Shown here in pieces: positions 1-57,410 of a stretch of 64,000 bases of DNA. The translations under genes and the position numbers were made by a program. Below the pieces are notes generated by a model. That model was not told the origin of the DNA, did not search any database, and saw nothing but the letters and a program-made list of their open reading frames with translations. The stretch is from Candidatus Caldarchaeum subterraneum (GTDB lineage Archaea > Thermoproteota > Nitrososphaeria_A > Caldarchaeales > Caldarchaeaceae): NCBI GenBank assembly GCA_937934305.1, contig CALHAG010000002.1, positions 142,192 to 206,191 of the forward strand. Direction: 5' to 3'. Positions within the stretch are counted from its first letter, which is position 1. Every line of letters begins with the position of its first letter.

Positions 1-1091
1 GCGCCTTCTAGGCCTGTCACCTGTCTGCCCAGCTCCGCTAAAGAGTATGCAAGCCCTCCAATCATGGGGGTGTCTAAGAACTCTGCGTTTGGTATCTGTC
101 TATAGGTGAGGAGCACCACTATGGGTCCTGTGACCGGCCCTGCGCCGAGGCAGTTGTCTGAGACCGGTAACCCATAGGAGTCGGATGTCTTGAGAAAATG
201 CCTGTCCAGCTTTGTTCTGCATGTCAGCGTCAGGGTTGAGCCCGCGGCCACCCATGTCTGGTAGGCGCCTTTTACGAGGATTTCTTGACCGTTTATGGTC
301 ACAGGCGCCTCAGCGCCCTCGGCGATTACGGTGAGCCTGTATTCCGTGGCGTAGTTGACCTTGGCTAGGCTGAGCAACTGCTTGGGTATGGGCTTATCCA
401 TTGGGAAGGTTTTATCGGCCACGGTGTATGACTGAGGTATTTTTCTCTCGTTGTCGCTTACCCTGACCGGCTCAGCATTTATTGTTGTGAATTGGTCAAG
501 CGGGTAATATTCGTCGAGGAACTTCACGTACGTGTAGTAGTAGGCGGTTAAGTTGACGGAGCCTGGCGGTAGCTTGATGGTTATCTCTGGCTGGGAGTAT
601 ATGTTTCCGAGAGCCTCCGCATAGAGATAGATGTATTTGTTCTCGCCCAATATTATCTCGGGTGGGAAAACATAGCTTATGGTTTCGCCCACCCTCGCTA
701 CCAGGGGACCGGGGCGGAGCTCTTTCGGCAGAGATATGTTGAGGACGGGGTTGACGACGGCTCTCTCTATCACCTCTCCGCCCGGTCCTGTGTAGAGCCT
801 CTCGAAGACTGCTTTAGCCTCAAAGTCTCCGTCGATGTAGAAGAAGAACGGGTTGGCGGAGGTGTAGTTGAACGGCATGCCTTTGCTGATTACCCATCCC
901 ATGAACCTGCAGTTGGTCGTCGGCCTAGCCTCTATCCTCACCTGCGCGCCGGCGGGGTATCTGCCTGCGCCGGCTATGGAGAGGATGCAGTCTGACGGCT
1001 CCCCTGTCAATGTAACGCTGTAGCTCTCCTGCGCGTAGACGGGGAACATCAATAGAAACATCAATATCGTGAACAACAGGACCTGCTTCAT
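1..1091 (-). CDS. Secreted hypothetical protein, partial; the N-terminus is in the window and the C-terminus runs off the left edge
   Basis: ATG at 1089-1091 on the minus strand, immediately downstream of the platform gene. I translated MKQVLLFTILMFLLMFPVYAQESYSVTLTG..., which has a signal-peptide-like N-terminus. I checked positions 1-300 in this frame by hand and found no stop. It is not in the ORF track because it is truncated at the edge. Confidence 0.45.
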   Translation of the reverse strand, partial: MKQVLLFTILMFLLMFPVYAQESYSVTLTGEPSDCILSIAGAGRYPAGAQVRIEARPTTNCRFMGWVISKGMPFNYTSANPFFFYIDGDFEAKAVFERLYTGPGGEVIERAVVNPVLNISLPKELRPGPLVARVGETISYVFPPEIILGENKYIYLYAEALGNIYSQPEITIKLPPGSVNLTAYYYTYVKFLDEYYPLDQFTTINAEPVRVSDNERKIPQSYTVADKTFPMDKPIPKQLLSLAKVNYATEYRLTVIAEGAEAPVTINGQEILVKGAYQTWVAAGSTLTLTCRTKLDRHFLKTSDSYGLPVSDNCLGAGPVTGPIVVLLTYRQIPNAEFLDTPMIGGLAYSLAELGRQVTGLEG

Positions 1092-5460: not shown

Positions 5461-8108
5461 GTAGATAAAGGAATAACTATGGTTGCTTCTGTGGCGTCGG
5501 CTGCTAGGGCTGTCTCCCCTCCTCCCAATGGGCTTGAAGCCTTTATTGTTGTTTCGGTGGGGGGTGCCGCCGGCAGCTTGGCTTGGCCGTCATAGGCTGT
5601 GGTGGCCCTGATGTCGGGGTATATCCACGCCTCTGTGAAGGGCGCGGGAATGCCTAGCACGTCTACGGCCTTTATCCTCACCGTTTTCAGCCCTGTCCTG
5701 AGCCTGTATTCTCCCGGCCCCTGTATAGATACTGTCTGTTCTACGTTGACCTCTGCTTCACGGTACCTTATGGAGACGGTTCTCCATGTTCCGCTGTCTA
5801 TGTATGCCATGGGTGGGGTGTATACTCTCGTTTCCCCGCCTCCTTCGAGGACCACGTTGTCAGGCTCGGCCAGGTATCCTTCGCCAGCCTCCAAGGCCAT
5901 TGATACAAGGTACTGGGGCAGGTATTCTACGCGGATATGCATCGGCTTGCTGACCGTTATCAGCCACGACCCTGTCCTAGCCCCGTCCACGTAGACGGCT
6001 TTAAGCGCCAGCCTAGTGGCGTTCCCCAGCTCAACGGTCTCGGGAAGCCATCGCCTAACATCTATCGATGAGCCGTTCTCAACCCTCTCCTCAAAGCTCT
6101 TGACAACGCTATCTACACGTATTGTCTGGAGTATTCTCCACTCAACCTTGACAGTGGCTGGCTGTGTCAAGGTATACTTCACCATAGCCATGTTCCCCCG
6201 GCTTAGGGACTGGTTCCACGTGGCTAGGACAGCCCCGTCCTGACCATATACGGTCATGTTCCTCAGCTCCACCACTGTCCCGTTCCCGAACTCCTGAACA
6301 ATGGGCATGAGGGTGTAGAGGGTCTCATTGGCTGTGAAGTACTTCTCCTCACTCAGGATATACCTGCTCTCTATCCTCACCTTGTGCTGCCTCTCCCAGA
6401 TGGGCTTGAGGGTCAGCGGCTTGTCCACAACTATCTCGGTTCCGTTGTATCCCTCGAACCCCTTGAAAACAAGCCTTGTACCGTTTCCAAGGTCAACTAC
6501 ATCCTTCTCCGGATGTATCTGCACCGTTGAGCCCTTGTCAACCCAGACGCTCTTGAACAATCCGCTGTATAGGCCCTCAACCCTTACGAGGTACTGAGGC
6601 TTCCAAAGCCTGTCCACAAGGTTCATAGGCGATGTGACGTTCACCACAGCATCCTGCCCGCGCCAAACCATTCTCACATCCTCGGATAACTGGAAGGATT
6701 CAGCCGCCGGCGCGAGCTTCACGACACTTTTCCTCAGAGCCCATACGTGTTTGCCGTCGTGGTAAGCCCAGCCTGACACGGCTTCTACCTTGACAGGGCC
6801 AGCCTCAAGCCTATACGCCCTCTCAAACCTAAGCTCAGCCAAGAGCCTGTCCTTGAGGCTCTCGAAGCATAGGCTCTGACCATTCATGGTCAAGGCTGTG
6901 AAGTTATCCCAGCCGGGGCCTATGCCGTCGTAAATAAGTATACGGTATACATTGGATTCGTTGATGTAGGGCATGACGTACTTCAGCAGCTTTTTAGGCA
7001 CTAAGGTGTAAGTGTAGTAAGTCTGCGATGAGCCGCCTACTCTGGTGACCTCCTCGGTCAACGTAACCCTCTGAACATCGTATGAGTGGAGAACGAGCCT
7101 AGTCCCGTTACCATAGTCAGATACAAACGGGAGATTTTCGCCAGACTTATCCTTGAAAGGCTTGATACATAGCGTCTCGCGGTAAATACCTTCGGTGACG
7201 GTGATGGGTGCGATGGGATAGGATAGACTAATCCAACCCTCCCCCTCGTCAAAGACGTTGTAGTGATACACCCATACCTCACCCGGCATGCTTATAACAG
7301 TGAGGTTGCTGGGCGGGCTGAGCCAGCCGCCGCCAAACTTCAGCACATCGTCGGCGGAGGCGTTTCTTAGTGAGCTAAACCTAACAGCCAATGCGTAGAG
7401 AACAAATGTATCTGGTGGACCAAATATTGGATAAGGTCGCCAAGCGTCGCCGGGATACCAGCCGCCTATTCTGAACCCTCTCCAGTCAAAACCATATTGA
7501 TAGCTTCGTGGGTATCCATCGTTATGGCCGAGGCCTATGGCGTGGCCAAACTCATGAGATAAAAACGCAAGGTTGCCTAAAACCTTCACATATGGTTCCT
7601 CGAGAGTCGCAGAGATTGTGCAAGCACCGTTCCCGCAACGACGTGTGGGGTCTATAATTATGTCGGGTGTAGGTATTGTTTCGTTTACACCTTCTATGTA
7701 GAATTTGAACCTTATTTTTGGGAGGTGTCTAGCCCATTCATAGTGTTCTGCGGCGTATTGTAACGCGGCTTGCCACGTTCTAACCACCCTCGATGCAAAC
7801 AACACATGCTCCCAGCCATACTCTGTTTGGATGACCTTAATCCTACTATAATCAAGATACTCTATGGTGGTTCCGGGCCTGTACTTGAGCAGTATGTTGT
7901 ATGTGTATCCTCCGTCCTCCTCCACGGTCTGCCTCGGGTTCCACCACTGGTTTATGGGGAAAACCTCTATTCTCTGCGTCAGCCTATCTCCTTTGAAGTC
8001 GTTGACCCATGTCACCTCCCAGCCCGGGTACTGGAACTCTTCACCATGTATGGGCAGGAGGACAAACAGTATGCAGACGGTTGCAAGCGCTGCTAACGCA
8101 GCCCTCAT
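5364..8108 (-). CDS. Large secreted, C-terminally anchored surface protein with a metzincin-type zinc-metalloprotease motif
   Basis: N-terminal signal MRAALAALATVCILFVLLPIHG. LSHEFGHAIGLGHND matches the metzincin HExxHxxGxxH(D/N) zinc-binding consensus. The C-terminus is a hydrophobic helix followed by an RRRRPRQQ tail. Confidence 0.6.
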   Translation of the reverse strand: MRAALAALATVCILFVLLPIHGEEFQYPGWEVTWVNDFKGDRLTQRIEVFPINQWWNPRQTVEEDGGYTYNILLKYRPGTTIEYLDYSRIKVIQTEYGWEHVLFASRVVRTWQAALQYAAEHYEWARHLPKIRFKFYIEGVNETIPTPDIIIDPTRRCGNGACTISATLEEPYVKVLGNLAFLSHEFGHAIGLGHNDGYPRSYQYGFDWRGFRIGGWYPGDAWRPYPIFGPPDTFVLYALAVRFSSLRNASADDVLKFGGGWLSPPSNLTVISMPGEVWVYHYNVFDEGEGWISLSYPIAPITVTEGIYRETLCIKPFKDKSGENLPFVSDYGNGTRLVLHSYDVQRVTLTEEVTRVGGSSQTYYTYTLVPKKLLKYVMPYINESNVYRILIYDGIGPGWDNFTALTMNGQSLCFESLKDRLLAELRFERAYRLEAGPVKVEAVSGWAYHDGKHVWALRKSVVKLAPAAESFQLSEDVRMVWRGQDAVVNVTSPMNLVDRLWKPQYLVRVEGLYSGLFKSVWVDKGSTVQIHPEKDVVDLGNGTRLVFKGFEGYNGTEIVVDKPLTLKPIWERQHKVRIESRYILSEEKYFTANETLYTLMPIVQEFGNGTVVELRNMTVYGQDGAVLATWNQSLSRGNMAMVKYTLTQPATVKVEWRILQTIRVDSVVKSFEERVENGSSIDVRRWLPETVELGNATRLALKAVYVDGARTGSWLITVSKPMHIRVEYLPQYLVSMALEAGEGYLAEPDNVVLEGGGETRVYTPPMAYIDSGTWRTVSIRYREAEVNVEQTVSIQGPGEYRLRTGLKTVRIKAVDVLGIPAPFTEAWIYPDIRATTAYDGQAKLPAAPPTETTIKASSPLGGGETALAADATEATIVIPLSTWTIVFIAAACSAAVLVLKISRRRRPRQQSSS

Positions 8109-10131: not shown

Positions 10132-11988
10132 TCACCATGGAAGGCAATACACCAAATACTTGACAATGACGCCGAATCCCACACCGGAGCCGCCTCCTCC
10201 GCCAGAGCTGCCTCCACCATCTCCGCCGCTCGATCCTCCGCCAGTCACAGGTACCGTAACAGAAACAGCCGTCACATCACATGTAGGAGGGGGGTTAAAC
10301 GTGCAGCTCTGACCGGGACCGCAGGAGCTGGTCGGGCCCATGTACACCCCTGACGGAGCGGGGGGCGATGGCGTGTAGATGTTGCATTCGACCTTGTCCA
10401 CGTAGTAGTACCTGTGAATTGTGTAGCTGTTCTCGGTGACTTGGAAGTGGTTGACGTAGACCGGGTTCTCCGGGCCGACTGTATAGGTTGGCAGGGCTGA
10501 TATCCGGGCCTGCCAAGCGTACCATGCGCGGTCTCCATAGGCGGTGGTGACGGGTGCTGTTCGTGTTGTCACCACCATATTGACCGGGTGGTGGGGATTG
10601 TCTCCCGGCCTGACGAACCTCGTCCCACTGTATAGGAGGGCGGCGGTGAAGGTTCCACGGTAATAGTTGTTGAATGTGAGTGCTGGGCCTGCCGGGTACA
10701 CACGAGTCCCGTATAATGTTGTGACATATTGCCTCCCCCATTCATCCCAGTCTGTTCTCACTGCTGTTGGCCATGTATATGTGGTTGGATAATGCGTCAT
10801 GGACACGTATTCTCCCTGCCGCATGTACGTGGCCGTGGGTGTGGGGTAGTTGGGCGGGGCGGGCTGTACATCTACTCTCCGCAGACTATACACCGCTGTG
10901 CATAATGAGTTGATTGCGGCTATGTTTATCGACACGATTAGGGACCTTGGCGCGTTTATGTTGGTGTAGTAGGTGCCTCTCTCCACGTAGACGGTTTTCG
11001 TGTCATCCGATGCGTCGGCCCAGCCGCCGGCAGGCTGCCAAGCCCATAGCAGGTAGTACCACCCGTTATAACCCCACGGCGGGACCTCCCACTGGACGTT
11101 TATGGCGTTTCTCCAGTCGGGTAATGGTGCTGACGGTGAGCCGTCCTCGGGGAGTCCTGTCACCGAGGCTGAGTAGTAGATGCCTCCTCCTGCAGGCAGC
11201 CCCCTCGCCAGTATGTTGATTTTCTCGAAGTGGTTTACGGCCCGTATGGTTGAGTAGGTTATAGGCGCTGGAGGGTTGAGGGTTATGGTCCTGTTCACGT
11301 AGAAGGTGTTGTTTATAGTGGTGAAGGATGGTACCTGCCATACTTCTGTGGTTGTGTAGTTGTATGTGGTTACGGTGGTTGCGCCTACTAGGTTGTCTTC
11401 GCGCGGGTAGCCCCATGTGCTGCCGAAGCTGTTGCCGGCGTCGGTGTATGCTATCAACGCCGCCATGTTGCCTGCGAGCTGTCGGAAGCTTGTGAAGCTG
11501 AGCCCTAGCTGCTCCGGGCTAAGCGTAACCTTTGTGCCCGGCGGAACAATTATCTGCCTGCTTATCTCTATGACTTGCCTGTTTTGGCTGGGCTGCGGCC
11601 TGTACACCGCCAGTAGCTTGGTTATGTTTGTCGGGAAGCCCCATGCGTTGACTATCGTTATTCTCGGTGGGCTGTTGATGTCTGAAGAGTTTTCGGCGTG
11701 GATGTATATGCGTATAAGCTCCTGGTCCTTGGCCGCCTGCCTCCTCAGCTCCTCCATCATCTGCCTGTTCTGGGCCGAGTACGTGTTTGAGACATAGGTT
11801 GTTGCGAGCACTCCTGCTGTGACTACAGCCATCACCATTATGGCCGCTATTACGCCGGATAACCCGGATGAGCTTTTCCTTTTCAAGGCATCAGAGAGAA
11901 AAAGAGCTGATGCATATAAGGCGATAAACCTCCCCGACCAATCTTGGTCAGGGAGGGGCATACACAGCTTCAACAAAATAATGGTCAT
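10132..11988 (-). CDS. Large pilin-like protein (class III signal peptide) with a Gly/Ser-rich C-terminal tail
   Basis: N-terminus KRKSSSG|LSGVIAAIMVMAVVTAGVL matches the archaeal prepilin (PibD) cleavage pattern G|[LIV]S shared by five neighbours. 618 aa with C-terminal GGGSSGGDGGGSSGGGGGSG. Confidence 0.55.
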   Translation of the reverse strand: MTIILLKLCMPLPDQDWSGRFIALYASALFLSDALKRKSSSGLSGVIAAIMVMAVVTAGVLATTYVSNTYSAQNRQMMEELRRQAAKDQELIRIYIHAENSSDINSPPRITIVNAWGFPTNITKLLAVYRPQPSQNRQVIEISRQIIVPPGTKVTLSPEQLGLSFTSFRQLAGNMAALIAYTDAGNSFGSTWGYPREDNLVGATTVTTYNYTTTEVWQVPSFTTINNTFYVNRTITLNPPAPITYSTIRAVNHFEKINILARGLPAGGGIYYSASVTGLPEDGSPSAPLPDWRNAINVQWEVPPWGYNGWYYLLWAWQPAGGWADASDDTKTVYVERGTYYTNINAPRSLIVSINIAAINSLCTAVYSLRRVDVQPAPPNYPTPTATYMRQGEYVSMTHYPTTYTWPTAVRTDWDEWGRQYVTTLYGTRVYPAGPALTFNNYYRGTFTAALLYSGTRFVRPGDNPHHPVNMVVTTRTAPVTTAYGDRAWYAWQARISALPTYTVGPENPVYVNHFQVTENSYTIHRYYYVDKVECNIYTPSPPAPSGVYMGPTSSCGPGQSCTFNPPPTCDVTAVSVTVPVTGGGSSGGDGGGSSGGGGGSGVGFGVIVKYLVYCLPW

Positions 11989-14584: not shown

Positions 14585-14870
14585 GTGAAGCTCAGACAAT
14601 GTTTATCAAGCCTATACGATATGTTGTGGTTAGAGCAGGCATGTATGGCTGCCCATATATGGTCAAACCCTATTCCCAGAAAGCCGAAATTTTGGCGAAT
14701 TAGGCCCGATTATCTGGTGACCGAAAATACCCGAAAAGTATTACCGCTTTTTGACCATATATGGTCAACCTGCCTCCGTAGAAGCGGGAAATTTCCGGGA
14801 ATTAGACCCAATTTCTTCCTGACCGAAATTATTCAAATCGTCATACCGGTTATTTGATTATATGCAGAGT
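14585..14870. repeat. Two tandem copies of a composite intergenic repeat unit (palindrome TTGACCATATATGGTCAA + GAAATTTYCGGGMATTAG box + GACCGAAAATACYCGAAAAGTATTAC hairpin box)
   Basis: Perfect 18-bp palindrome at 14749-14766 and a partial one at 14654-14666. The same unit recurs at 22262-22535, 36588-36720 (inverted), 56366-56440 and 56636-56760. Confidence 0.7.
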
Positions 14871-21702: not shown

Positions 21703-21990
21703 TTATTTCTTCCCAGTTTTCCGGGGCTCGAGGGTTATCTCCATCGTGCTTACGCTCACTTCTTTGTCTCCCTTGTTCAGCTTCTGTGTACCTATGTCGA
21801 CTTTGGATACCTGGATATGTGGGGCAAGTCTGGTGACAAGCTGGGACACGTTCACGGCATCGTTTATCCTAGCTCCACGCGCCTTCAGGATAACCGACTT
21901 GTACCCGCTTGCGAACGCAGCTATGCAGCCCAATGCGTAGAAGCTTATCCTCCTCTTACCTATCGGAATCTCGTGAACATCCTTTGTCAA
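21703..21990 (-). CDS. alba: Alba paralog (Sso10b-family)
   Basis: SVILKARGARINDAVNVSQLV...EVSVSTMEITLE. Second, divergent copy 1.1 kb from the first and in the opposite orientation. Confidence 0.85.
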   Translation of the reverse strand: MTKDVHEIPIGKRRISFYALGCIAAFASGYKSVILKARGARINDAVNVSQLVTRLAPHIQVSKVDIGTQKLNKGDKEVSVSTMEITLEPRKTGKK

Positions 21991-22261
21991 ACCTGAGCCA
22001 CCTCCATCTCGGGCAGACTTCCTCTGATTATAATCCTCCTATGCCTGCCCCCTTTAATCCGGCTGACCTCCAGAACATCAACCGTCCCCGTGTCGTGCCG
22101 AAGCCCGTCAACATAGTCCCGCATATGCTTTTTACACAGCTCCAGTATGACATGGGTTGTCAGGTTCTCAACCCTGTAGACAGCTCTTCGCCTGCAGCCA
22201 CCCGCCCACAGACAATGCATAACCCTACCTACGCCGGCTTGGATTAAACAGTATAGAACGG

Positions 22262-22535
22262 GTAAGTTGACCATATATGGTCAACCCCTCCCTGTAGAAA
22301 GCCGAAATTTTGGCGAATTAGGGCGCTGTAATACCTGACCGAAAATACTCAAAAAGTATTACGCCTAAGATAAATGCTTGACAATATATGGTCAACTCAC
22401 TTTCCCAGAAACCCGAAATTTCCGGGAATTAAGCCCAATTTATCCCTGACCGAAAATACTCGAAAAGTATTACCTCTGTTGACAAAATATGTTCAAACAC
22501 TTCTCTAGAAACCGGAGATGTTATTTGGCTGGAAT
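22262..22535. repeat. Two and a half tandem copies of the composite palindrome-containing repeat unit
   Basis: Palindromes at 22267-22284 (perfect), 22378-22395 (1 mismatch) and 22479-22496 (degenerate). Each is followed by the GAAATTTYSGG..ATTAG box and the GACCGAAAATACTCGAAAAGTATTAC box. Confidence 0.7.
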
Positions 22536-36299: not shown

Positions 36300-36587
36300 A
36301 CGGTATCCAAGGGCTGGGATGGATTTATCACGATAAGCTTTTAAGGCCAGCCTCAGCCCGCATCATGTGTTAGAAACCCTGACACATAGAAGACGAAACG
36401 GGAAAAAGCTGCTTAGTCCATACGCCAACGGATTCGGATACTGTTCAATGTGTAGAGAATATTATCCTGCGTATGAGGAGACATGCATATACCACAAAAT
36501 CAGGCTTCGGCTACGGGCGAGAACAAGGACAAAGAAAGAATATCCAAGAATAGTTGTGGAGTAATCCAAGAAAGTTCCGGAGCTTTA

Positions 36588-36720
36588 TAGGATGTACCAA
36601 ACCATACATGTTCGGAAAAGGTAATACTTACCAAGTAATTTTGGTCAGGGAGAAATCGGGCCTAATTCCTCAAAATTTTGGCTTTCTACGGAGGCGGGTT
36701 GACCATATATGGTCAACGCC
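36588..36720. repeat. Inverted-orientation copy of the composite palindrome-containing repeat unit
   Basis: GTAATACTTACCAAGTAATTTTGGTCAGG...GGCCTAATTC...CAAAATTTTGGCTTTC...TTGACCATATATGGTCAA, with a perfect palindrome at 36699-36716. It lies at the 3' end of the 15-gene array. Confidence 0.65.
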
Positions 36721-37522
36721 GGCTTCGGCTAGACTTGTTCTCGGGTGGAGAGCGGCGTGCTATGATGGTTAGCACGGTCATAGCCTGCTGTAGGTCGCCT
36801 CCATGCGCGTATCTAGCTACTCTCAGCACGTCTCTGGCGCTTCTGAAACCGTTGGCCCACATGGTTCTGGCTAGTGTTTTAGCCGACTGTTCGTCGAAGC
36901 CATGTTCCACGAATATTCGGAGAGCCACTTTCTCGAAGTCTCCAGCGTCGTATTGAGGCAGGTACAGTATCATGAAGCGGTCAAGGACTTCTGGAGGAAT
37001 CTTTTCGAGGTAGTTGGCGGTGGCCATGACCGTGGCGAGGCATGTTTTCTCGGCCTCGATGTTTCCTTTTAGTACAGTTATCCGCCCTGTCTGCATCAGG
37101 CTGAGCAATACGTCGTAGTCCGTCTTCCCCATCTTGTCCAGCTCATCTATCAGGACCAGCTCTATTTGGTCCCCGGCCATCAGCAACTTGTTCCGTAGAC
37201 CGGCTTTGCTTACTTGGCTGCCCAGCAGGAAGAGCCGCTTCTCCTGAGGCACCTCTTTCTCAACCGATAACAGCAGCATTGTTTTCGCTATTCCCGGCGG
37301 GCCGGCGAGCAGGACATGTATCCTCTGGTCTATGTTTGTCAGAATCGTCCGCCTCATCATCTCCATGCTCCGCTCCAGCACTATCTTCACGTCGTCAAAG
37401 CCCTCAACCATCTTGAAGTTCTGCCCCTCATAGCGTAGAGGAACCTGTGAAATAGCTGGAGCGGGGGAAGGTTTCTCCCTCTCCGGCTTCCCTCTCCTGA
37501 GAAAATCAAAGAGCGGCGGCAT
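36713..37522 (-). CDS. MoxR-like AAA+ ATPase (small)
   Basis: Walker A LLAGPPGIAKTMLL fits the GxPGxAKT MoxR-type P-loop. Walker B is ELVLIDELDKM. 269 aa. Confidence 0.5.
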   Translation of the reverse strand: MPPLFDFLRRGKPEREKPSPAPAISQVPLRYEGQNFKMVEGFDDVKIVLERSMEMMRRTILTNIDQRIHVLLAGPPGIAKTMLLLSVEKEVPQEKRLFLLGSQVSKAGLRNKLLMAGDQIELVLIDELDKMGKTDYDVLLSLMQTGRITVLKGNIEAEKTCLATVMATANYLEKIPPEVLDRFMILYLPQYDAGDFEKVALRIFVEHGFDEQSAKTLARTMWANGFRSARDVLRVARYAHGGDLQQAMTVLTIIARRSPPENKSSRSRR

Positions 37523-38138: not shown

Positions 38139-39006
38139 GCCTCCGCCTCATCTCGTTCTCAAGCCGCGTAGGCTTAGCCCCCTGCGCCGGGACTAGGCCT
38201 CTATCGGTTAGGCGCATGTACAACCCTATGTTGTCAGGCTTTTCTCGATGAGCCTCGATGACGAAAAACCTGAGGTCGCCCTGTAGCCTCCAAATCCTCG
38301 CTATTACTTTAGCTATGTATCCAAGAAAACGGCCGCCGATGTAGTCTTCACCATAGGTCCCCAACACGATGTCCAAATCTCTGACGTCTATGAGGCCTTT
38401 TTTCGCAGCCTTCTCAAGCTCCCTGATTTGATGCTGCTCGAAAGCCTTCTTAGCCTTGGACGCGCTCCATGAGGTGAAAAGAACCGTGGCTCCGCTGTTT
38501 TTTGCATAGTTTAGCAAGGTCTTGGTCTGAAGCTCCAGCTTACCCATAAGCTCTCTGGCCACAGACCCCACATGCTCCGTTGGCGCGTTCATGACACGCT
38601 GGTGATAATGCCAAGCTATGGAATCGATAACAAACATTCCAACCTCCGCTTTTTTCACAAGCCCTCCCCATTCATCCATGACGATTTTATGCTGTTCAGA
38701 CAGCTCCCCGGCTTGATAGATAAGCACATTCGAGATGAGCCTGTGTATCAGCTCCTGCTTCACACCCATCGCCGCCGCTAGATTGTATAGCCTAAGCTGG
38801 CTGACGCCGCCTGACTCCGTATCCAGGTAAAGGATTTGCCGGCCTTCTTCAGCAACCTTCAACGCGGCCTGCATAGCGAAAGTGGTTTTACCGGCTTTCT
38901 GGCTGCCGTATATCAGGGCTAAGCCCGCCCGCGGCAGGCCATACATGAGCTCGTCCAGCTCAGGCACGCCGGTTGTCCTGTAGAAGCGGCGAATCATCTC
39001 CTCCAT
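38035..39006 (-). CDS. KaiC-like RecA-superfamily ATPase
   Basis: LALIYGSQKAGKTTFAMQAAL is a Walker A. QILYLDTESGG is present. Walker B-like is GMFVIDSIA. 323 aa. Confidence 0.6.
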   Translation of the reverse strand: MEEMIRRFYRTTGVPELDELMYGLPRAGLALIYGSQKAGKTTFAMQAALKVAEEGRQILYLDTESGGVSQLRLYNLAAAMGVKQELIHRLISNVLIYQAGELSEQHKIVMDEWGGLVKKAEVGMFVIDSIAWHYHQRVMNAPTEHVGSVARELMGKLELQTKTLLNYAKNSGATVLFTSWSASKAKKAFEQHQIRELEKAAKKGLIDVRDLDIVLGTYGEDYIGGRFLGYIAKVIARIWRLQGDLRFFVIEAHREKPDNIGLYMRLTDRGLVPAQGAKPTRLENEMRRRLVEEEAVVVASDEDTDGGREARQPARGGLAGRKG

Positions 39007-39007
39007 G

Positions 39008-40138
39008 TCATTCTTCCTCTGGTTTCCAAATGTCCTTGTTCGGGAAACCGCATTCCAAACATGCTACAGGAGCCCCGTGCGCCAACCCTCTCAGAACAGA
39101 GGAGCAGCTTGGGCATAGAAGCACCCGAACATTGTCAAGCGGCGGGTTGAGGTTTACGACTGGATAATAGGAGGGGAAGGGTGAGGTGTCCGCGGATATT
39201 AGCTTCATGAAGGCTCTCGGGTTTCTCGGGATGCTCAGGATTGCTTCAGGGCGTTTGAGCACTTCATGCAGATACGGTCCCTGCTTCACGGCTTTGAAGA
39301 GGTGCGGCCGCCAATCCAGCATCTTTACAGCTTCTTCGGGGCTCGGCAGCGGCTCACGCCGCTCCTCCACAGGCTGAGAACCGGTGTCTTGTTTCTTGTC
39401 TTCAGGCTTTGCTTTTAGACGCTTCACCGCTTGGAAAAACTTCGTGGCAGTTGTTTTCTTGACTCCGTTGACGAGGTGTTTTTCCTTAGACCGCCTATCC
39501 ACCACATGTATGCCCTCTTCTTCAAGCAGCTTTCTGGCGTCGAATCTCTCGACCATTGAGCGAACAGTTTCGAAAGGCAGGTTAAGCGATTCTGCCACTT
39601 TTCTCCATGAGCCGAGGAATTTATGGAGAGCGACTAGGCCTTCATAGAACTCCTCCTCGCTTAGAGGCAGTGTCTTGCCTTCGTCGCTTAATGCCCAGAG
39701 AAGGGCCTCCTTATCGCTTAAATCGAAAACATAGCAAGGTATCTCCTGTATCCCTGCTATGCGTGCGGCTTCGACACGGCGGGACCCTCTGACCACTCCA
39801 TATGTCCCATCTGGAAGCGGCCTGACGGCCACTGCTGAGACGAAGCCATGTTTAACTATGTCTTCCACCAACGGTTTCAGGTCACCAAGATTCTCTCTCG
39901 GGTTCATTGGGTCTTTCACTAGCTTGCTCAACGGCAGGGTTACGAGCTTAGGCTCGATTACCTGACCCATCATATTATTGCTCTTCGGAGGTATATTAAA
40001 GGAGTCTGGGCCATTTTCGGTCATCTCTCTCTCACCACCTCCAGTACACGGGCAGCCGTGGATTGACCAATTATTTTCGCCAAATGTTCGGTGGATATCC
40101 GGCGGAGGTCTTCCACCCTCCTGATACCAGCGTTCCAT
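39008..40138 (-). CDS. ParB-like nuclease-domain protein with a C-terminal zinc ribbon
   Basis: VRPLPDGTYGVVRGSRRVEAARIAG matches the ParB/Srx GxRRxxAA box. C-terminal CPSCSSVL...CLECGFPN. The likely true start is the ATG at 40024, which would give an ATGA overlap with the hel308 stop. Confidence 0.55.
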   Translation of the reverse strand: MERWYQEGGRPPPDIHRTFGENNWSIHGCPCTGGGEREMTENGPDSFNIPPKSNNMMGQVIEPKLVTLPLSKLVKDPMNPRENLGDLKPLVEDIVKHGFVSAVAVRPLPDGTYGVVRGSRRVEAARIAGIQEIPCYVFDLSDKEALLWALSDEGKTLPLSEEEFYEGLVALHKFLGSWRKVAESLNLPFETVRSMVERFDARKLLEEEGIHVVDRRSKEKHLVNGVKKTTATKFFQAVKRLKAKPEDKKQDTGSQPVEERREPLPSPEEAVKMLDWRPHLFKAVKQGPYLHEVLKRPEAILSIPRNPRAFMKLISADTSPFPSYYPVVNLNPPLDNVRVLLCPSCSSVLRGLAHGAPVACLECGFPNKDIWKPEEE

Positions 40139-42063
40139 AGAGCCCTGGCCCTGACCCTTCCTATGCCCGGCAGCGAGCAGAGCGGGAGCAGCTCCTCTCT
40201 CACGCCATGCTTGATTCTTTCAGACAATACTAGGAAGGTTTTAGATGCCTGTCGCCGGCCGACCATGGCCGCAAGCTCCGAAGCAGCCTGAGCTATCCAA
40301 GAACCTGATTCGCTGAGGACATATATGTCCCCCGGAGCTGCTCCGAACCGGCTCTCTATAGTGGACTCCCCCATCTCCTCCACCCATGCCTTGAGGACAC
40401 TGGCTTTGGCGATGGCTGGGCCGTCGAAGTCTCCGTAGTCCCTGAACCAGTCGAGGGCAGGCTGTATATGGGATAGAAGCTCGATGTCGGGTGTGGAGCA
40501 GATGGTCAGGAGCGCAACGTCGTCAGCCTTCGGACCTGCTTTCTCAACATCCTCAAGCCTCGAAAGGATTATACGGGCCGACAGTGGGTCGATGTAGAGG
40601 TCCGCAACCCTCTTACCCAGCCTCGTCGCCCTCCATCCTCCGCCATCATGTTTTATGAACTTGGCCGCTTCGAGGTAAGACAATGCGCTGTCAACCTTTT
40701 CCATCAAGCCGCTATCCTGCCGCGACGCCAAGGTTTTCTCGAAGAAAGCCACAAGCTCATTATGGTCTGAGAAACCGCTTGATACAAGCCCCAGCGTATG
40801 AAACCTGAGCCTCCTCTGGTCGGAGAGCCTGCTTACAATCGGCTCAAGCTGCCCATGAACATATCTCCTCATCATCTCATTCCTCTGCCTAGAATTCTTC
40901 GCAATAATCACAGCCAGCCCCTCTTTATCGAAGCCAGGCCTCCCAGCTCGGCCGCATAACTGCTTATACTCCATCACGGACATATCTTCCCCACCTCGTT
41001 TGACATCGGGTATTATGACGGCTCGCGCAGGCAGGTTGACTCCGGCGGCCAGCGTAGGCGTCGCGACTATTGCCTTCAGCAACCCCGCACGGAAAGCATC
41101 CTCAACAGCTTTCCGCTGATGCGGATACAGCCCGGCGTGATGGAAGGCTGTGCCACGTCTAATGTATCTGGCTAGACGCGTGGAGCAGTCTCCCCCATCG
41201 TATACTGTTTCAGCCAAAGCCGAGAGCTGAGCAGCCTCTCCCCCAACTACTCTAAGGGCCGAGGCGAGGTCGTCAGCAATTCCTTCAGCGGCCCTTCTAC
41301 TAGAAGCGAATACCAGCACCTGCCCACCGATTGATACAATGTTTAGGACAAGGTTCTTCACCGGGTCGCTGCTCAGCCTAGGCAGCCTCTCGGATGAGCC
41401 GTCGGAGAAGAATAGCTCGTCCCTGTCTTGCTGATACACGGCTTCTCGGAGGGGCACGGGCCTCCAGCTCGAGGAAACTATGTCGGCGCCAGTATACTCA
41501 GCCAGGTCCTCGACGTTTCTAATGGTCGCGCTCAGCAAAAGAAACTGGGCATTCGGAAGCTCGGTTAACAAACGTGTTATAAGCACTTCAAGGGTTGAGC
41601 CTCTTTCCTCAGCCGCCAACATGTGTACCTCGTCTACCACAACAAGTGAAGTGGATTTGACCCATGAGGCGCTGTGCCTCAGCATGCTGTCCATCTTCTC
41701 ATTTGTCGAGACCACGATGTCGTAGCCTCTAAGCCACTCCTCAGGCTGGTCATAGTCCCTGCTGACGGCGGCCACCTTGTATCTATCGCCGAAAAGCTCC
41801 TCGAAAAACTGCTTCTTCTCACTGGTTATGGCTCTCAGAGGAGAAAGGTAAACCACTCTGCCTCCCCTATCCAAATGCTTGGACGCAGCCAAAGCAGCTA
41901 GAAGAGTTTTGCCGCTCGCCGTCGGAGTGGCCACCAGCAGGTTGCGGCCGTCCAGCAACCCTTTGGAAACGGCTTCAGCCTGAGGCGGGTACAGAGCCTC
42001 GACACCTATGCCCCGCAGCTTATCCACCAAGTAAGAAGGTATGGGGAGCTGGTTCACCATCAC
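40021..42063 (-). CDS. hel308: Hel308/Hjm-family Ski2-like DNA helicase
   Basis: Motif I is LLVATPTASGKTL. Motif II is VVDEVHMLAAEERGSTLEVLITRL. Motif III is LLSATIRNVEDLAEY. Motif VI is QLCGRAGRPGFDKEG. C-terminal HhH LPGIGRVRARALWNAGIRRVEDL. N-terminal ...RGIGVEALYPPQAEA is Hel308-typical. Confidence 0.85.
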   Translation of the reverse strand: MMVNQLPIPSYLVDKLRGIGVEALYPPQAEAVSKGLLDGRNLLVATPTASGKTLLAALAASKHLDRGGRVVYLSPLRAITSEKKQFFEELFGDRYKVAAVSRDYDQPEEWLRGYDIVVSTNEKMDSMLRHSASWVKSTSLVVVDEVHMLAAEERGSTLEVLITRLLTELPNAQFLLLSATIRNVEDLAEYTGADIVSSSWRPVPLREAVYQQDRDELFFSDGSSERLPRLSSDPVKNLVLNIVSIGGQVLVFASSRRAAEGIADDLASALRVVGGEAAQLSALAETVYDGGDCSTRLARYIRRGTAFHHAGLYPHQRKAVEDAFRAGLLKAIVATPTLAAGVNLPARAVIIPDVKRGGEDMSVMEYKQLCGRAGRPGFDKEGLAVIIAKNSRQRNEMMRRYVHGQLEPIVSRLSDQRRLRFHTLGLVSSGFSDHNELVAFFEKTLASRQDSGLMEKVDSALSYLEAAKFIKHDGGGWRATRLGKRVADLYIDPLSARIILSRLEDVEKAGPKADDVALLTICSTPDIELLSHIQPALDWFRDYGDFDGPAIAKASVLKAWVEEMGESTIESRFGAAPGDIYVLSESGSWIAQAASELAAMVGRRQASKTFLVLSERIKHGVREELLPLCSLPGIGRVRARALWNAGIRRVEDLRRISTEHLAKIIGQSTAARVLEVVRER

Positions 42064-55077: not shown

Positions 55078-55811
55078 ATCTTCATCAAAGTGTTGTTTTC
55101 AGGGTTGAGGAGCCACGCAACCAAGTCGAAGACGTTCTGCGGATTGGGTAGAACAAAGTCAGCCAGACTACATGCGTTTGCCTCTCCGGCTCCGCATGCG
55201 AGCAACCCTATAGCGGGTATGTAGGGCCCTGCGGCCACGAAAGCTATTGAAGCCGCTATAAACCATGCGCCTATTCCCCTGAGCTTTCCTCCGGGGACAG
55301 CCAGCAGGGCCACGCCAAGGGGAGCGAGGACCACTGCTAGCGAGCCGAAGACCGTTAAAAACACCATCAAGGTGAAGCTTGTTATAAGCGTCACGGAGAG
55401 GGCTAGACCCGGCAGAGAGGCGATTACGCTAAAGATGTTGGCTATCGCCGGCCCCACTATAGGTATCAGAGCGGTCCCCATTCCTATCCCCGTAATGATG
55501 GCCAGCAGCGAGAAGGCCTTATTGCCTACAGTCAAATACAGCGTTGGAAGGTCAGAACACTCAATCCTCGGAGCGGCTATAGAAGATGAAACAATATTGA
55601 TTAAACCATTGATAGAATTGGCTACGCCTAGGACGGCTACGACGCCGGCAGCCACGAGGCTGTATGAGATTAGGTGACCGCCCCATGAGCTGCCGCTTCC
55701 GCCCGGCAAAGGGGTTCTATGCAGGGCTAAGCCAACCGCATAGCCCAGGCTGACAAGGGCCCAGGCGACGGCGGCGTATTCACCCAACCCCGCGTAGGTA
55801 CAGCTAATCAT
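54969..55811 (-). CDS. Polytopic membrane protein (CedA/VirB6-like candidate)
   Basis: 280 aa with ~7 hydrophobic helices. Sits between the pilin candidate and the giant membrane protein. Confidence 0.4.
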   Translation of the reverse strand: MISCTYAGLGEYAAVAWALVSLGYAVGLALHRTPLPGGSGSSWGGHLISYSLVAAGVVAVLGVANSINGLINIVSSSIAAPRIECSDLPTLYLTVGNKAFSLLAIITGIGMGTALIPIVGPAIANIFSVIASLPGLALSVTLITSFTLMVFLTVFGSLAVVLAPLGVALLAVPGGKLRGIGAWFIAASIAFVAAGPYIPAIGLLACGAGEANACSLADFVLPNPQNVFDLVAWLLNPENNTLMKMWRFALGSLAGWGIVTAAAAALSKGIGGVAASLGFG

Positions 55812-55848: not shown

Positions 55849-56373
55849 TCAACTTGGCACGTCCCAGGGACCGCCTATAGGTATAGACGAGCCCTGCCCT
55901 GACGCTGCCACAGCCACGTCGGCTGCGAATTTTATGATGTAGAGGCCCAGCGCGGTCAGCCCGCCGACTATCAGCGCGCTGTCAATCAGTTGTCCGGCGC
56001 CCTCCTTGGTCCTGTGAGACCCTAGAGGCAGGAACTTTATCGCTATCCCCGCGCCCAGCAGAGCCATCGCAATCAGCAGGAGAAGCTGCTGAAACCCTTG
56101 CAACGGCTCCCTAATCAAGTTTGCAACCCCTCCCGCGCCCGCTGCGTGAACCGTCTGAGACGCCAGAGCCGTCGCCGCCAGTTGCACAGCCGTCAATGCC
56201 GCAGGCCTGAGCCGTGCCAACACCTTTCCCATTCTCCAAGCCTTGTGGGTTTTCATGGTCGCTTCGAGACCGTCTCCGAACATGATAATAGATAAACTTT
56301 TGGTGGCAAACCTGAACGAGAACTGAACGAAAGTTGAACGTAAGTTGAACGAGGAGAAACTATTTTCGGTCAA
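55849..56373 (-). CDS. VirB2/TrbC/CedA1-like pilin candidate; the probable true start is the ATG at 56256
   Basis: From the internal Met: MKTHKAWRMGKVLARLRPAALTAVQLAATALA (signal-like), then two hydrophobic helices separated by a short charged loop (GSHRTKEGAG). The annotated N-terminal 39 aa read through the promoter/repeat region. Confidence 0.4.
   Translation of the reverse strand: MTENSFSSFNLRSTFVQFSFRFATKSLSIIMFGDGLEATMKTHKAWRMGKVLARLRPAALTAVQLAATALASQTVHAAGAGGVANLIREPLQGFQQLLLLIAMALLGAGIAIKFLPLGSHRTKEGAGQLIDSALIVGGLTALGLYIIKFAADVAVAASGQGSSIPIGGPWDVPS
56282..56300 (-). promoter_or_regulatory. Candidate TATA-like promoter for the 15-gene minus-strand array
   Basis: The minus strand reads AAAAGTTTATCTATTATCATG ~27-45 nt upstream of the ATG at 56256. 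It lies immediately next to the TGAACG array. Confidence 0.3.
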
Positions 56374-56481
56374 GGTATCTGTGAAGTGGCTGAATTTTGG
56401 CGAATTAGGCTGACCATAATTACTCGGCCGTCGTTCAATTCTCGTTCAGTTTACGTTCAACTTTGCCACCAAAAATTTATA
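56295..56481. repeat. ~55-bp inverted repeat (arms 56295-56354 and 56428-56481) carrying TGAACG boxes at exact 11-bp phasing
   Basis: Left arm TTTTGGTGGCAAACCTGAACGAGAACTGAACGAAAGTTGAACGTAAGTTGAACG has TGAACG at 56313, 56324, 56335 and 56346. Right arm CGTTCAATTCTCGTTCAGTTTACGTTCAACTTTGCCACCAAAAA has CGTTCA at 56432, 56443 and 56454. A third direct copy of the right arm is at 56880-56934. Confidence 0.7.
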
Positions 56482-56635
56482 TAGGGTTCTTCATGATGTC
56501 AACTAGGCTATTTAAAGGTAAATGGTTAATGCCATGTAAAAAATCGGCTTATTTCGCCATAACTCGCCAATCCAGAAGAAATGGTGGAAGAGACGGAAAA
56601 AGCCCAGTTTTAGTGGATTGACGTAATGCAAGCTC

Positions 56636-56760
56636 GTTTTTGACAATATTTGGTCAACCCCCATCCGTGGAGAGGCGAAATTTCCGGGAATTAGGGCGGA
56701 TTATATGTTGACCGAAATTAGTCAGAGTTTGGTATTACGCCCCGTTTCTAGAGCCTAGAG
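56636..56760. repeat. Copy of the composite palindrome-containing repeat unit (degenerate palindrome TTGACAATATTTGGTCAA)
   Basis: TTGACAATATTTGGTCAACCCCCATCCGTGGAGAGGCGAAATTTCCGGGAATTAGGGCGGATTATATGTTGACCGAAATTAGTCAGAG. Confidence 0.6.
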
Positions 56761-56879
56761 AGGATGAGTTTCGGGTCTTTAAGTCTACGGATTCCGCAAA
56801 ACAGACAAATATTAAGACATTTGACGAAAAAATGGATATGATGAGTGATGGTTTTAGACGGTGACCGAAATTACTCAGC

Positions 56880-56934
56880 CGTCGTTCAAATCACGTTCAA
56901 TTCTCGTTCAAGTTTGCCACCAAAAATTTATAAG
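56880..56934. repeat. Direct repeat of the right arm (CGTTCA x3 at 11-bp phasing + TTTGCCACCAAAAATTTATA)
   Basis: ~90% identical to 56428-56481. CGTTCA at 56882, 56893 and 56904. Confidence 0.65.
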
Positions 56935-56989
56935 CCATCAGTTTTGAGACAGTCCCAGACCAAGCCCTTAACCGAGGGGTTTGGTCCCA

Positions 56990-57410
56990 TAAACCCTACG
57001 TGAAATACCGATGAGGCCCTGTTGCGGCAGGGCTGAGCTGGAGAGGCGCATGCGGAGCGTCCCGTGACGGGGTTCGTCAGATACCTCGTCACCCGAGGGC
57101 TGGGAGCCGGCATGCCTGGCCCAAGGCCCCGGACACTCACGTAGGGTGTGCCGAAGCCGGCGATGCATAGGTGCTGCGGACGCTTGGTAGAGGGGCACCC
57201 CCGCCACCGAAGCGACCAACGGACCCACAAGGCTTGGAGGTGGATGCAGGGATGCCCCATAGGGAGGAGAATAAGCCTCCTTATAGGGCTTCCCACCCTC
57301 TCCAACGCCTACGAGAAGAGCTACCGGTGACTATAAGGGGTACTAACGGGACTGGTGACATGCGGTGTCCGGTGACCTATGTAGGTCTCCGAAGTGACTA
57401 AGGGGCAGGC
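56990..57410. ncRNA. GC-rich hairpin-dense non-coding segment (candidate structured RNA of unknown class)
   Basis: No coherent ORF; the tracks show only Arg/Pro-rich spurious frames. There are many local hairpins (GCCCTGttgcggCAGGGC, CCCGtgaCGGG, GGCATGCC). A 10-bp perfect inverted repeat CCCTACGTGA (56993) / TCACGTAGGG (57141) closes a ~140-nt domain. I compared it to RNase P and SRP RNA motifs and the resemblance was partial and inconsistent. Confidence 0.25.

What the first reader, a model, noticed from the sequence alone, without database searches (positions are those of the whole stretch)
14585..14870. Composite intergenic repeat family built around the perfect palindrome TTGACCATATATGGTCAA
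A ~100-130-bp unit recurs at five or more intergenic loci in this window: 14585-14870 (x2), 22262-22535 (x2.5), 36588-36720 (inverted), 56366-56440 (partial) and 56636-56760.

Each unit contains an 18-bp perfect or near-perfect palindrome. It also contains a GAAATTTYCGGGMATTAG box and a small hairpin box GACCGAAAATACTCGAAAAGTATTAC (AATACT/AGTATT stem).

It is not a CRISPR array, because the sequences between palindromes are themselves conserved and the period is irregular. The options are a MITE-like mobile repeat or a shared operator for a transcription factor.

Copies sit at the boundaries of the pilus operon and the DNA-transfer array, and upstream of alba and of the thioredoxin/S2P genes.
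Basis: seen in the sequence. Interest (0 to 1): 0.6.

Follow-up and report, generated by a model that had tools for sequence, protein, structure and literature searches.

The report
Composite protein-binding DNA repeats, Caldarchaeum
A real but rare family of ~100-bp intergenic DNA modules, each built around an 18-bp palindrome, marks the edges of a pilus and DNA-transfer gene cluster in an uncultured hot-spring archaeon; it most likely serves as docking sites for DNA-binding proteins and is not a jumping element, an RNA gene or a CRISPR array.

Summary
Six full ~102-nt units, one truncated unit and several isolated modules occur at the four stated loci. Each unit is P (TTGACCATATATGGTCAA), 19 nt, box2 (GAAATTTYSGSGAATTAG), 14 nt, box3 (TGACCGAAAWTA), 9 nt, GTATTAC.

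The host is Candidatus Caldarchaeum (Aigarchaeota). Related units occur in at least four other lineages, so the family is not unique to this window. It is low-copy: collection-wide scans found only a handful of contigs.

Four blocks are conserved, the linkers are free, and spacing is fixed (no indels over 87 columns). There is no conserved RNA fold (SCI 0.1 on both strands), no Rfam hit, no coding signal, no terminal inverted repeats or target duplications, and no insertion polymorphism among strains. One strain-level gene-conversion patch exists.

Box3 also sits upstream of three paralogous iteron promoters and on the start codon of a ParB/Noc-like gene. Sister genomes with a different ParB allele carry a different palindrome instead.

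Best reading: DNA-level protein-assembly or regulatory sites of an ICE/Ced-like gene cluster. The binder is unproven.

The parts
14649..14750 (+). Unit U1 (imperfect palindrome CTGCCCATATATGGTCAA; box2 type A; box3; GTATTAC)
14751..14852 (+). Unit U2 (perfect palindrome; box2 type B). Its 3' end merges into the TATA-like element (14856-14863) upstream of gene 14884.
22267..22368 (+). Unit U3 (perfect palindrome; type A). The ATG of the called ORF 21987-22274 (- strand) lies inside the palindrome.
22378..22478 (+). Unit U4 (TTGACAATATATGGTCAA; type B)
22479..22521 (+). Unit U5, truncated and degenerate (palindrome TTGACAAAATATGTTCAA plus linker only)
36615..36716 (-). Unit U6 (perfect palindrome). 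The stop codon of the MCM-like AAA gene (36713-37522, - strand) lies in the palindrome. Other strains carry a converted variant here.
56640..56744 (+). Unit U7 (TTGACAATATTTGGTCAA; long form). Similarity to the L084 copies continues to about 56830.
56385..56425 (+). Partial unit (box2 + box3, without the 14-nt linker) forming the upstream end of promoter module Pb
56296..56372 (-). Promoter module Pa of the 20-kb operon: box3 (TGACCGAAAAT, 56372-56362), then 4 CGTTCAR iterons at 11-nt period, then GCCACCAAAAGTTTAT
56411..56483 (+). Promoter module Pb: box3-like TGACCATAATT, then 3 CGTTCAR iterons, then CCAAAAATTTATATA
56862..56933 (+). Promoter module Pc: box3 TGACCGAAATT, then 3 CGTTCAA iterons, then CCAAAAATTTATAA
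40013..40067 (-). Unit-like motifs at the start of the ParB-like gene: TTGGTCAA about 40 nt upstream, and an exact box3 core overlapping the start codon (ATGACCGAAAATGG)
286..301 (.). Stand-alone TGACC-N6-GGTCA palindrome inside a pilus-cluster gene
6241..6256 (.). Stand-alone TGACC-N6-GGTCA palindrome inside the 914-aa gene
6877..6892 (.). Stand-alone TGACC-N6-GGTCA palindrome inside the 914-aa gene
39008..40026 (-). ParB/Spo0J/Noc-like gene (GSRR box, HTH, C-terminal Zn ribbon): candidate binder
36367..36564 (+). Orphan 65-aa Zn-ribbon ORF convergent with U6. The same pairing is seen in L103. Weak candidate partner.

Best explanation
The units are DNA-level assembly sites for one or more sequence-specific DNA-binding proteins.

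Each ~102-bp unit presents four conserved blocks at fixed spacing:
- a dyad, TGACC-N6-GGTCA;
- an AAATTT-centred box2;
- a third TGACC half-site, box3;
- GTATTAC.
The dyad, box2 and box3 centres lie about 3 helical turns apart, so they face the same side of the helix.

The units act as cis-regulatory or architectural sites (operator-like or parS-like) for an ICE/Ced-like cluster of pilus and DNA-transfer genes in Candidatus Caldarchaeum. Single modules are reused on their own. Box3 heads three paralogous iteron promoters and overlaps the start of the ParB-like gene. The bare dyad occurs inside pilus-cluster genes.

Copies arose by segmental or tandem duplication and exchange sequence by gene conversion, not by transposition.

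Shown here: the anatomy, the block conservation, the fixed spacing, the low copy number, the lineage distribution, the absence of RNA and coding signals, and the module reuse. Inferred: protein binding, and the identity of the binder. The best candidate binder is the operon's ParB/Noc-like CTPase (about 0.25). Another transcription factor or the small Zn-ribbon protein remain possible.
For: - Block-wise conservation. Mean pairwise difference is 0.08-0.16 in the four blocks and 0.47-0.65 in the linkers. There are no indels over 87 columns in 10 units that are only 61-82% identical. Twenty-eight columns stay invariant across 15 units from about 5 lineages.
- Sub-families cross species. U3 is 82% identical to L56A, and U7 is 77-79% identical to L84a/b.
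- Conserved position. The arrangement AAA-gene stop, then P, box2, box3 is kept in the window, L084, L104 and L103, although flanking intergenic DNA cannot be aligned.
- Motif specificity. TGACC-N6-GGTCA is enriched only at spacing 6: 6 perfect sites, against 0-2 at every other spacing. Thirteen sites at up to 1 mismatch compare with 2.0 expected.
- Module reuse. The exact box3 core occurs 8 times against 0.06 expected. Two of these are in promoter modules Pa and Pc, and one is on the ParB start codon.
- Candidate binder nearby. A ParB/Spo0J/Noc-like protein with an HTH is encoded in the operon that is flanked by inverted units U6 and U7.
- Allele correlation. Genomes with a 35%-identical ParB allele lack the unit. 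They carry five GTCAAC-N2-GTTGAC palindromes instead, one just upstream of parB and three where U6 sits in the window. A third ParB class has TTAAACATGTTTAA 25 nt upstream of parB.
- Gene context. The cluster encodes T2SSE/T2SSF, two VirB4/HerA-like ATPases and a CedA-like protein. This matches thaumarchaeal ICEs, which carry ParB-like genes (PMC6563490).
Against: - No binding data exist, and no recognised transcription factor is encoded in the window.
- Orientation and distance to neighbouring genes are not uniform: divergent upstream at loci 1 and 2, at a gene's 3' end at locus 3.
- Outside this species and L056 the dyad is often asymmetric (GACA...GGTC, GGCC...GGTC), and only one lineage shows a compensated change.
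- The L056 genome has the class II ParB yet holds two intact units 64 kb from the operon.
- Recombinant strains L099 and L102 combine a class II ParB with a window-type unit.
- Weaker intragenic GACC-N6-GGTC sites are not conserved at orthologous positions.
- A genome-wide census was not possible.
Confidence: 0.55

Rival explanations
1. A selfish, non-autonomous mobile repeat (MITE-like or REP/BIME-like mosaic) that spread through intergenic DNA and is now decaying. The conserved blocks would be the sites its transposase needs.
For: - Copies occur at several intergenic loci in both orientations.
- The unit is present after the AAA gene in the window, L084, L104 and L103, but absent at the same place in L086-L088.
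- L089 holds a decayed relic.
- L056 carries units in a non-syntenic context.
- Modules combine in mosaic fashion, as in BIMEs.
Against: - No inverted repeat joins the two ends of a unit.
- No target-site duplication is visible on reading the flanks.
- The units form head-to-tail tandem arrays.
- Copies are only 61-82% identical, with block-wise rather than uniform divergence and no indels.
- A composite-pattern scan of 241 million metagenome records found 3 contigs. The genome-collection scan found one related locus.
- There is no copy-number or insertion polymorphism among about 20 same-species contigs at 96-99.6% identity.
- No transposase domain was found among the window ORFs scanned.
- Plasmid, phage and viral collections hold no relatives.
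Confidence: 0.2
2. Recombination sites (att-like or cassette-boundary sites) for a site-specific recombinase. The dyad with its 6-bp AT-rich centre would be the core, and box2 and box3 the accessory arm sites. They would mark places where cargo genes are inserted or where the operon is exchanged or inverted.
For: - Downstream of the AAA gene, two direct units bracket unrelated cargo in different lineages: a 305/286-aa ORF in L084/L104, and 112+304-aa ORFs in L103.
- In L084 and L104 the second copy drags along a fragment of the AAA 3' end.
- U6 and U7 flank the 20-kb operon as inverted copies, palindrome inward.
- The parB-containing part of the operon has been exchanged between lineages: L099 parB is 100% identical to that of L088.
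- A gene-conversion patch lies inside U6.
Against: - No integrase or recombinase domain was found among the ORFs scanned in the window or next to the L084/L103 units.
- The paired units are 22% diverged, so they are not fresh duplications.
- The recombination breakpoint in L099 lies inside the KaiC-like gene, not at a unit.
- Tandem dimers and trimers, and box3 embedded in promoters, are not expected of att sites.
Confidence: 0.12
3. Each unit encodes or is part of a small RNA (sRNA, terminator or 3'-UTR stabiliser) in which the palindrome and the 'hairpin box' act as RNA hairpins.
For: - The perfect palindrome would form a 7-bp hairpin.
- U3 folds with a z-score of -3.1.
- U6 lies directly after a stop codon.
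- T5-T6 runs precede the palindrome in U2, U7 and L56B.
Against: - No Rfam family matches, even at E = 10.
- The RNAalifold consensus is -3.9 kcal/mol with a covariation term of -0.1.
- The SCI is 0.10-0.11 on both strands for 15 units.
- Most single units fold no better than shuffles, with z from -0.2 to -1.9.
- Arm changes are mostly uncompensated.
- The units contain no BRE/TATA.
Confidence: 0.05
4. The units encode a 23-aa micro-ORF (TTG...TGA; LTIYGQPASVESRNFRELGPISP), or are fragments of a coding repeat.
For: - The frame from TTG (in the palindrome) to TGA (in box3) is open in 8 of the 10 units read by eye.
- There are no indels.
- Third-position variability is slightly higher: 0.40 against 0.28-0.30.
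Against: - Synonymous positions in the conserved blocks are invariant, and the conserved blocks are palindromic at the DNA level.
- Linker codons change radically.
- Gene callers do not call these ORFs.
- L84a has an in-frame stop.
- All three intragenic palindromes share one reading frame, but only two frames are stop-free, so p is only about 1/8.
Confidence: 0.03

Closest known systems
KorB-OB operator network of IncP plasmid RK2 (ParB-family CTPase; PMC11790492)
   Same: A short palindrome is present in several copies across a ~60-kb conjugation-type gene cluster, both near and far from promoters. A ParB-family protein is encoded inside the cluster. The cluster holds pilus and DNA-transfer operons.
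   Different: Here the palindrome is embedded in a ~100-bp four-block unit, often in tandem. The host is an archaeon. No binding, CTP dependence or partner protein (KorA-like) is known. The link between ParB allele and palindrome type is only suggestive.
Composite or tandem plasmid centromeres (P1 parS with box A, box B and an IHF site; F sopC 43-bp repeats). From my own knowledge, not checked here.
   Same: These are multi-box sites with fixed internal geometry, or head-to-tail repeats that each hold a dyad. They lie next to the par genes.
   Different: The period here is 101-120 bp rather than 43 bp. No ParA-type partner was found in the operon. The units sit on a chromosome at four separate loci.
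REP/BIME mosaic elements of enterobacteria (PMC3733652)
   Same: They are extragenic and palindrome-containing, with mosaic combinations of modules, and often lie at the 3' ends of operons.
   Different: There is no GTAG/CGTC head on the palindrome. Copies number fewer than about 10 rather than hundreds. No RAYT was seen. The units are direct tandem copies rather than alternating inverted REPs.
MITEs (e.g. Sulfolobus SM1-4). From my own knowledge.
   Same: Size of about 100 bp, intergenic location, and patchy presence among related genomes.
   Different: No terminal inverted repeats and no target-site duplications. Low copy number, high divergence between copies, and no strain-level insertion polymorphism.
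Sulfolobales DNA-damage response element bound by Orc1-2 (ANTTTC; consensus AATAGTTTCRGWDTACTCWS; PMC6061795)
   Same: Box2 (GAAATTTC) and the reverse complement of box3 (A[AT]TTTCGG) contain ANTTTCRG. The regulated genes in Sulfolobus are Ups pili and the Ced DNA importer, which are analogous to the flanking operons here.
   Different: In Sulfolobus the element lies 23-55 nt upstream of the start codon. Most units here are 150-310 nt away or at gene 3' ends. The motif is short. No Orc1-2 orthologue was examined.

Membership tests
MITE | Terminal inverted repeats at the two ends of the element | tested here: not met
   The inverted-repeat search at all four loci finds only the internal palindrome and palindrome-to-palindrome pairs between neighbouring units.
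MITE | Target-site duplications flanking each copy | tested here: not met
   No shared short direct repeat is visible on reading the flanks. In tandem arrays the units abut each other.
MITE | Many similar copies, with insertion polymorphism between strains | tested here: not met
   Copies are 61-82% identical. The composite pattern found 3 contigs in 241 million metagenome records. About 20 same-species contigs all keep the same copies.
MITE | A cognate autonomous element with a transposase in the genome | not testable with these tools
   No transposase domain was found among the window ORFs scanned. The whole genome could not be fetched.
REP/BIME | A 20-40-bp imperfect palindrome headed by GTAG or CGTC | tested here: not met
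   The palindrome is TTGACC-ATATAT-GGTCAA. A variable GTAG/CCAG/GTGG lies 9 nt downstream, not at the head. The definition is taken from PMC3733652.
REP/BIME | High copy number (tens to hundreds per genome) | tested here: not met
   Searches found only a few loci across whole collections.
CRISPR array | Short identical repeats separated by unique spacers of similar length | tested here: not met
   The sequence between palindromes is itself conserved. The period varies: 101, 102, 111 and 120 nt.
Known RNA family (Rfam) | A match to a covariance model | tested here: not met
   There are no hits at gathering score in the window. At E <= 10 on loci 2 and 4 there is only chance-level noise.
Structured non-coding RNA (any) | A conserved secondary structure supported by covariation | tested here: not met
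   The consensus energy is -3.9 kcal/mol and the covariation term is -0.1. The SCI is 0.10-0.11 on both strands.
parS / KorB-OB-type ParB binding site | A short palindrome in multiple copies on the replicon, with intragenic copies allowed | tested here: met
parS / KorB-OB-type ParB binding site | A cognate ParB-family protein with an HTH encoded nearby | tested here: met
   Gene 39008-40026 (- strand). ParB_N scores 5e-12. Spo0J 1vz0 scores 2e-13 over residues 65-185. TIGR00180 scores 1.7e-11, below its cut-off.
parS / KorB-OB-type ParB binding site | The site co-varies with ParB specificity | tested here: inconclusive
   Class I ParB goes with the units (window, L084, L104). Class II goes with the GTCAAC-N2-GTTGAC palindrome, and class III with TTAAACATGTTTAA. 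Against this, L056 units sit in a class II genome, and L099 is a recombinant.
parS / KorB-OB-type ParB binding site | Demonstrated specific binding and CTP-dependent loading | not testable with these tools
   This requires an experiment.
Sulfolobales DDRE (Orc1-2 site) | ANTTTC located 23-55 nt upstream of the start codon of damage-induced genes | tested here: not met
   The motif is present in box2 and in the reverse complement of box3. Only U3's box2 lies in that range (28-35 nt from the ATG at 22274). The others are 150-310 nt away or at gene 3' ends.

The most novel reading that the evidence does not exclude
An archaeal counterpart of the KorB/ParB-CTPase regulatory network. The ParB/Noc-like protein of a domesticated ICE/Ced-like DNA-transfer cluster would load at the TGACC-N6-GGTCA dyads. 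The composite ~100-bp units would be loading or roadblock stations, with box2 and box3 bound by partner proteins. This would coordinate the pilus operon, the Ced-like operon and its three iteron promoters over about 56 kb. Different ParB alleles would have co-evolved with different palindromes (P, GTCAAC-N2-GTTGAC, TTAAACATGTTTAA).
Probability: 0.2. Interest if true: 0.75.

Novelty: new variant of a known kind. Interest (0 to 1): 0.45.

Why it matters
If the units are protein-loading or operator stations, they give a concrete cis-regulatory handle on how an uncultured aigarchaeon controls its pili and its conjugation-derived DNA-transfer machinery. No regulator of these systems is known outside Sulfolobales.

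The apparent pairing of ParB alleles with different palindromes offers a testable natural experiment in ParB-site specificity in Archaea. Recombinant proteins and short oligonucleotides would be enough to test it.

If the units are only decaying repeats, the value is limited to annotation: they explain spurious ORF calls.

Tried and rejected
- Pseudo-protein search. I tried to harvest more copies by searching the protein database with a concatenated six-frame translation of the units. Nothing scored. The GGGG linkers I used probably saturated the word filter, and gene callers do not call these ORFs anyway.
- Homologues of the type IIG R-M protein as a synteny anchor. Uninformative: the protein is horizontally mobile, with top hits in Methanomethylicia and other groups.
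- Extending the window through its edge genes. Only 3-5-kb contigs came back.
- Viral, plasmid and phage collections. Only chance matches.
- Zn-ribbon protein as a conserved partner. The window ORF has one relative among 1.84 billion cluster representatives, the syntenic L103 gene at 59% identity. The L056 Zn-ribbon genes are only generically similar (26%). The association is therefore weak.
- Same reading frame of the three intragenic palindromes (xTxxGQ). Because TGA forbids one frame, p is only about 1/8.
- ANTTTC/Orc1-2 resemblance. Kept as a lead only.
- Box2 as a hairpin or palindrome. Inconsistent between variants.

Full report
**What is there**

The 18-bp palindrome TTGACCATATATGGTCAA has 10 matches at up to 3 mismatches, against 0.01 expected. 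Repeat finding and alignment define a ~102-nt unit:
- P (18 nt), then a 19-nt stretch ending in GARAGCC;
- box2, GAAATTTYSGSGAATTAG;
- a 14-nt linker;
- box3, TGACCGAAAWTAYTC;
- about 9 nt, then GTATTAC.

Full copies lie at 14649, 14751, 22267, 22378 and 56640 (+ strand) and at 36716-36615 (- strand). A truncated third copy starts at 22479. Box2 has 7 copies against 0.18 expected. The exact box3 core has 8 copies against 0.06 expected.

Two details need correcting. The 'hairpin box' is conserved as sequence, not as a hairpin. The stretch 56366-56440 belongs to a promoter module, not to a decayed unit.

**Organism and context**

Source names for homologues of a flanking protein identify Candidatus Caldarchaeum (Aigarchaeota). 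The window encodes, in order:
- a type-IV-pilus-like operon with T2SSE and T2SSF;
- a type IIG R-M enzyme, two Alba genes and a GmrSD-like gene;
- a 20-kb operon with two VirB4/HerA-like ATPases, a Hel308-like helicase, a ParB_N protein, KaiC/RadA-like proteins and an MCM-like AAA protein.

One product of the 20-kb operon resembles CedA/CedE (E = 8e-8, below the cut-off). This gene content matches Ced/Ted systems and thaumarchaeal ICEs, which also carry ParB-like genes (PMC9905601, PMC6563490).

**Distribution**

A scan of 185,579 species genomes with the palindrome gave about 66 hits. That number is what chance predicts, and nearly all hits are bacterial. The exception is L056, a Nitrososphaerota/Caldarchaeum MAG with two units 120 nt apart in a different gene context.

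A composite pattern scanned over 241 million metagenome records found only three contigs. Two are the same species as the window. The third, L084, comes from a lineage whose proteins are 60-76% identical to the window's.

Look-ups around homologues of the AAA protein added units in L104 and L103 and a decayed relic in L089. L086-L088 (the genome that also holds L056), L090, L091, L105 and L106 have none. Viral, plasmid and phage collections hold no relatives.

The family is therefore real and not unique to the window, but it is narrow and low-copy. About 20 same-species contigs (96-99.6% identical) keep every copy with no copy-number change.

**Mode of conservation**

Units are 61-82% identical to each other. 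Sub-families cross species boundaries: U3 is 82% identical to L56A, and U7 is 77-79% identical to L84a/b.

Divergence is block-wise. Mean pairwise difference is 0.15 in P, 0.14 in box2, 0.16 in box3 and 0.08 in GTATTAC, against 0.47-0.65 in the linkers. Ten units show no indel over 87 columns. Fifteen units keep 28 invariant columns, with a single 1-nt indel before the box3-GTATTAC spacer, confined to the two L103 units. The centres of P, box2 and box3 are 32 and 30.5 bp apart, about three helical turns.

The order 'AAA-gene stop, then P, box2, box3' is kept in four lineages, although the surrounding intergenic DNA cannot be aligned.

Within the species, locus 3 carries a 15-difference patch confined to linker 1 and box2, against a background identity of 98.8%. 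This is gene conversion between copies.

**What it is not**

- Not a known RNA. Rfam gives nothing.
- Not a structured RNA. The alignment fold is -3.9 kcal/mol with no covariation. The SCI is 0.10-0.11 on both strands. Single units mostly fold no better than shuffles.
- Not coding. A 23-codon frame is open in most units, but synonymous positions in the blocks are invariant and codon periodicity is weak.
- Not a MITE. There are no terminal inverted repeats, no target duplications visible on reading the flanks, and no strain polymorphism.
- Not REP/BIME. The palindrome has no GTAG/CGTC head, and copies number a handful rather than hundreds.
- Not CRISPR. The 'spacers' are conserved.

**Modules used on their own**

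TGACC-N6-GGTCA is enriched only at spacing 6, with six perfect sites. Three of them lie inside pilus-cluster genes.

The control region 56290-56960 holds three paralogous promoters, Pa, Pb and Pc. Each consists of box3, then 3-4 CGTTCAR iterons at an 11-nt period, then GCCACCAAAARTTTAT. Pa drives the 20-kb operon, whose real start is probably the ATG at 56283.

An exact box3 core overlaps the start codon of the ParB-like gene (ATGACCGAAAATGG), with TTGGTCAA about 40 nt upstream.

**The ParB lead**

The ParB_N protein aligns with Spo0J, ParB and Noc through the GxRR box into the HTH region. Its alleles fall into classes that are about 35% identical to each other.
- Class I (window, L084, L104) goes with units downstream of the operon.
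- Class II (L086-L088) lacks the unit there. It has five GTCAAC-N2-GTTGAC palindromes instead: one directly upstream of parB and three where U6 sits in the window.
- Class III (L105) has TTAAACATGTTTAA 25 nt upstream of parB.

Two observations count against this lead. L056 holds two units in a class II genome. Strains L099 and L102 combine a class II parB (100% identical to L088) with a window-type unit. The few lineages are also not independent. I rate ParB as the binder at about 0.25.

**Verdict**

The units are most likely DNA-level protein-assembly or regulatory sites of an ICE/Ced-like gene cluster (0.55). Rivals:
- a decaying mobile repeat (0.2);
- recombination or cassette-boundary sites (0.12), supported by unrelated cargo ORFs bracketed by two units in L084/L104 versus L103;
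- RNA-level elements (0.05);
- a micro-ORF (0.03).

No publication holding the palindrome sequence was found in the searchable library.

Noticed in passing
window 56950-57400 (+): Downstream of promoter Pc lies a GC-rich stretch with no credible ORF. It folds far better than shuffles (MFE -216.9 kcal/mol, z = -5.1) and has no Rfam match. It is a candidate novel structured RNA of about 450 nt, expressed from the same promoter type as the Ced-like operon.
   Followed up: partly
window 56296-56372 (-), 56411-56483 (+), 56862-56933 (+): Three paralogous promoter modules carry 3-4 CGTTCAR iterons at an 11-nt period immediately upstream of GCCACCAAAARTTTAT. This is probably an operator array for a separate regulator. 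The first gene of the 20-kb operon probably starts at the ATG at 56283, not at the TTG at 56373.
   Followed up: partly
window 57398-57507: Three 22-nt repeats, each holding the palindrome TTGGATAGATTATCCAA, lie upstream of gene 57578 (+).
   Followed up: no
L088 4703, 7407, 10892, 10951, 11011 (also L086, L087; L099/L102 407): In genomes with the class II ParB allele, the palindrome GTCAAC-N2-GTTGAC occurs five times in 20.8 kb of the orthologous operon. One copy is directly upstream of parB and three are downstream of the last gene.
   Followed up: partly
L099 and L102 versus window 38627-40522: Some strains of the window's species carry a helicase/ParB segment whose ParB is 100% identical to that of a species with only 78% identical AAA protein. 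This points to recent horizontal replacement of part of the operon, with the breakpoint near position 1902 of L099, in the KaiC-like gene.
   Followed up: partly
window 54969-55811 (-): A 280-aa protein with no Pfam domain gives sub-threshold NCBIfam matches to CedA, CedE and CedA1 (E = 8e-8 to 3e-4). This suggests that the operon is a Ced/Ted-like DNA-transfer system in an aigarchaeon.
   Followed up: no
window 58620-58841: Three copies of a TGCGCATGTGC-containing 44-nt repeat lie at about 90-nt spacing. The region 58335-59131 differs in the 97.9%-identical strain L085.
   Followed up: no
window 11925-11955: An extended inverted repeat, CCTCCCcGACCAATCTTGGTCaGGGAGG, lies at the junction of two pilus-operon genes. 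It contains a GACC-N6-GGTC core.
   Followed up: no
L069, L070, L075 (contig ends): Three independent assemblies of the same species end inside unit U3 of locus 2. The cause could be an assembly break at the repeat or local strain heterogeneity.
   Followed up: no
window 36367-36564 (+); L103 2448-2717 (-): An orphan 65-aa Zn-ribbon ORF, called as a gene in several MAGs, has only one relative among 1.84 billion protein-cluster representatives. In both lineages it lies convergent with a unit.
   Followed up: yes
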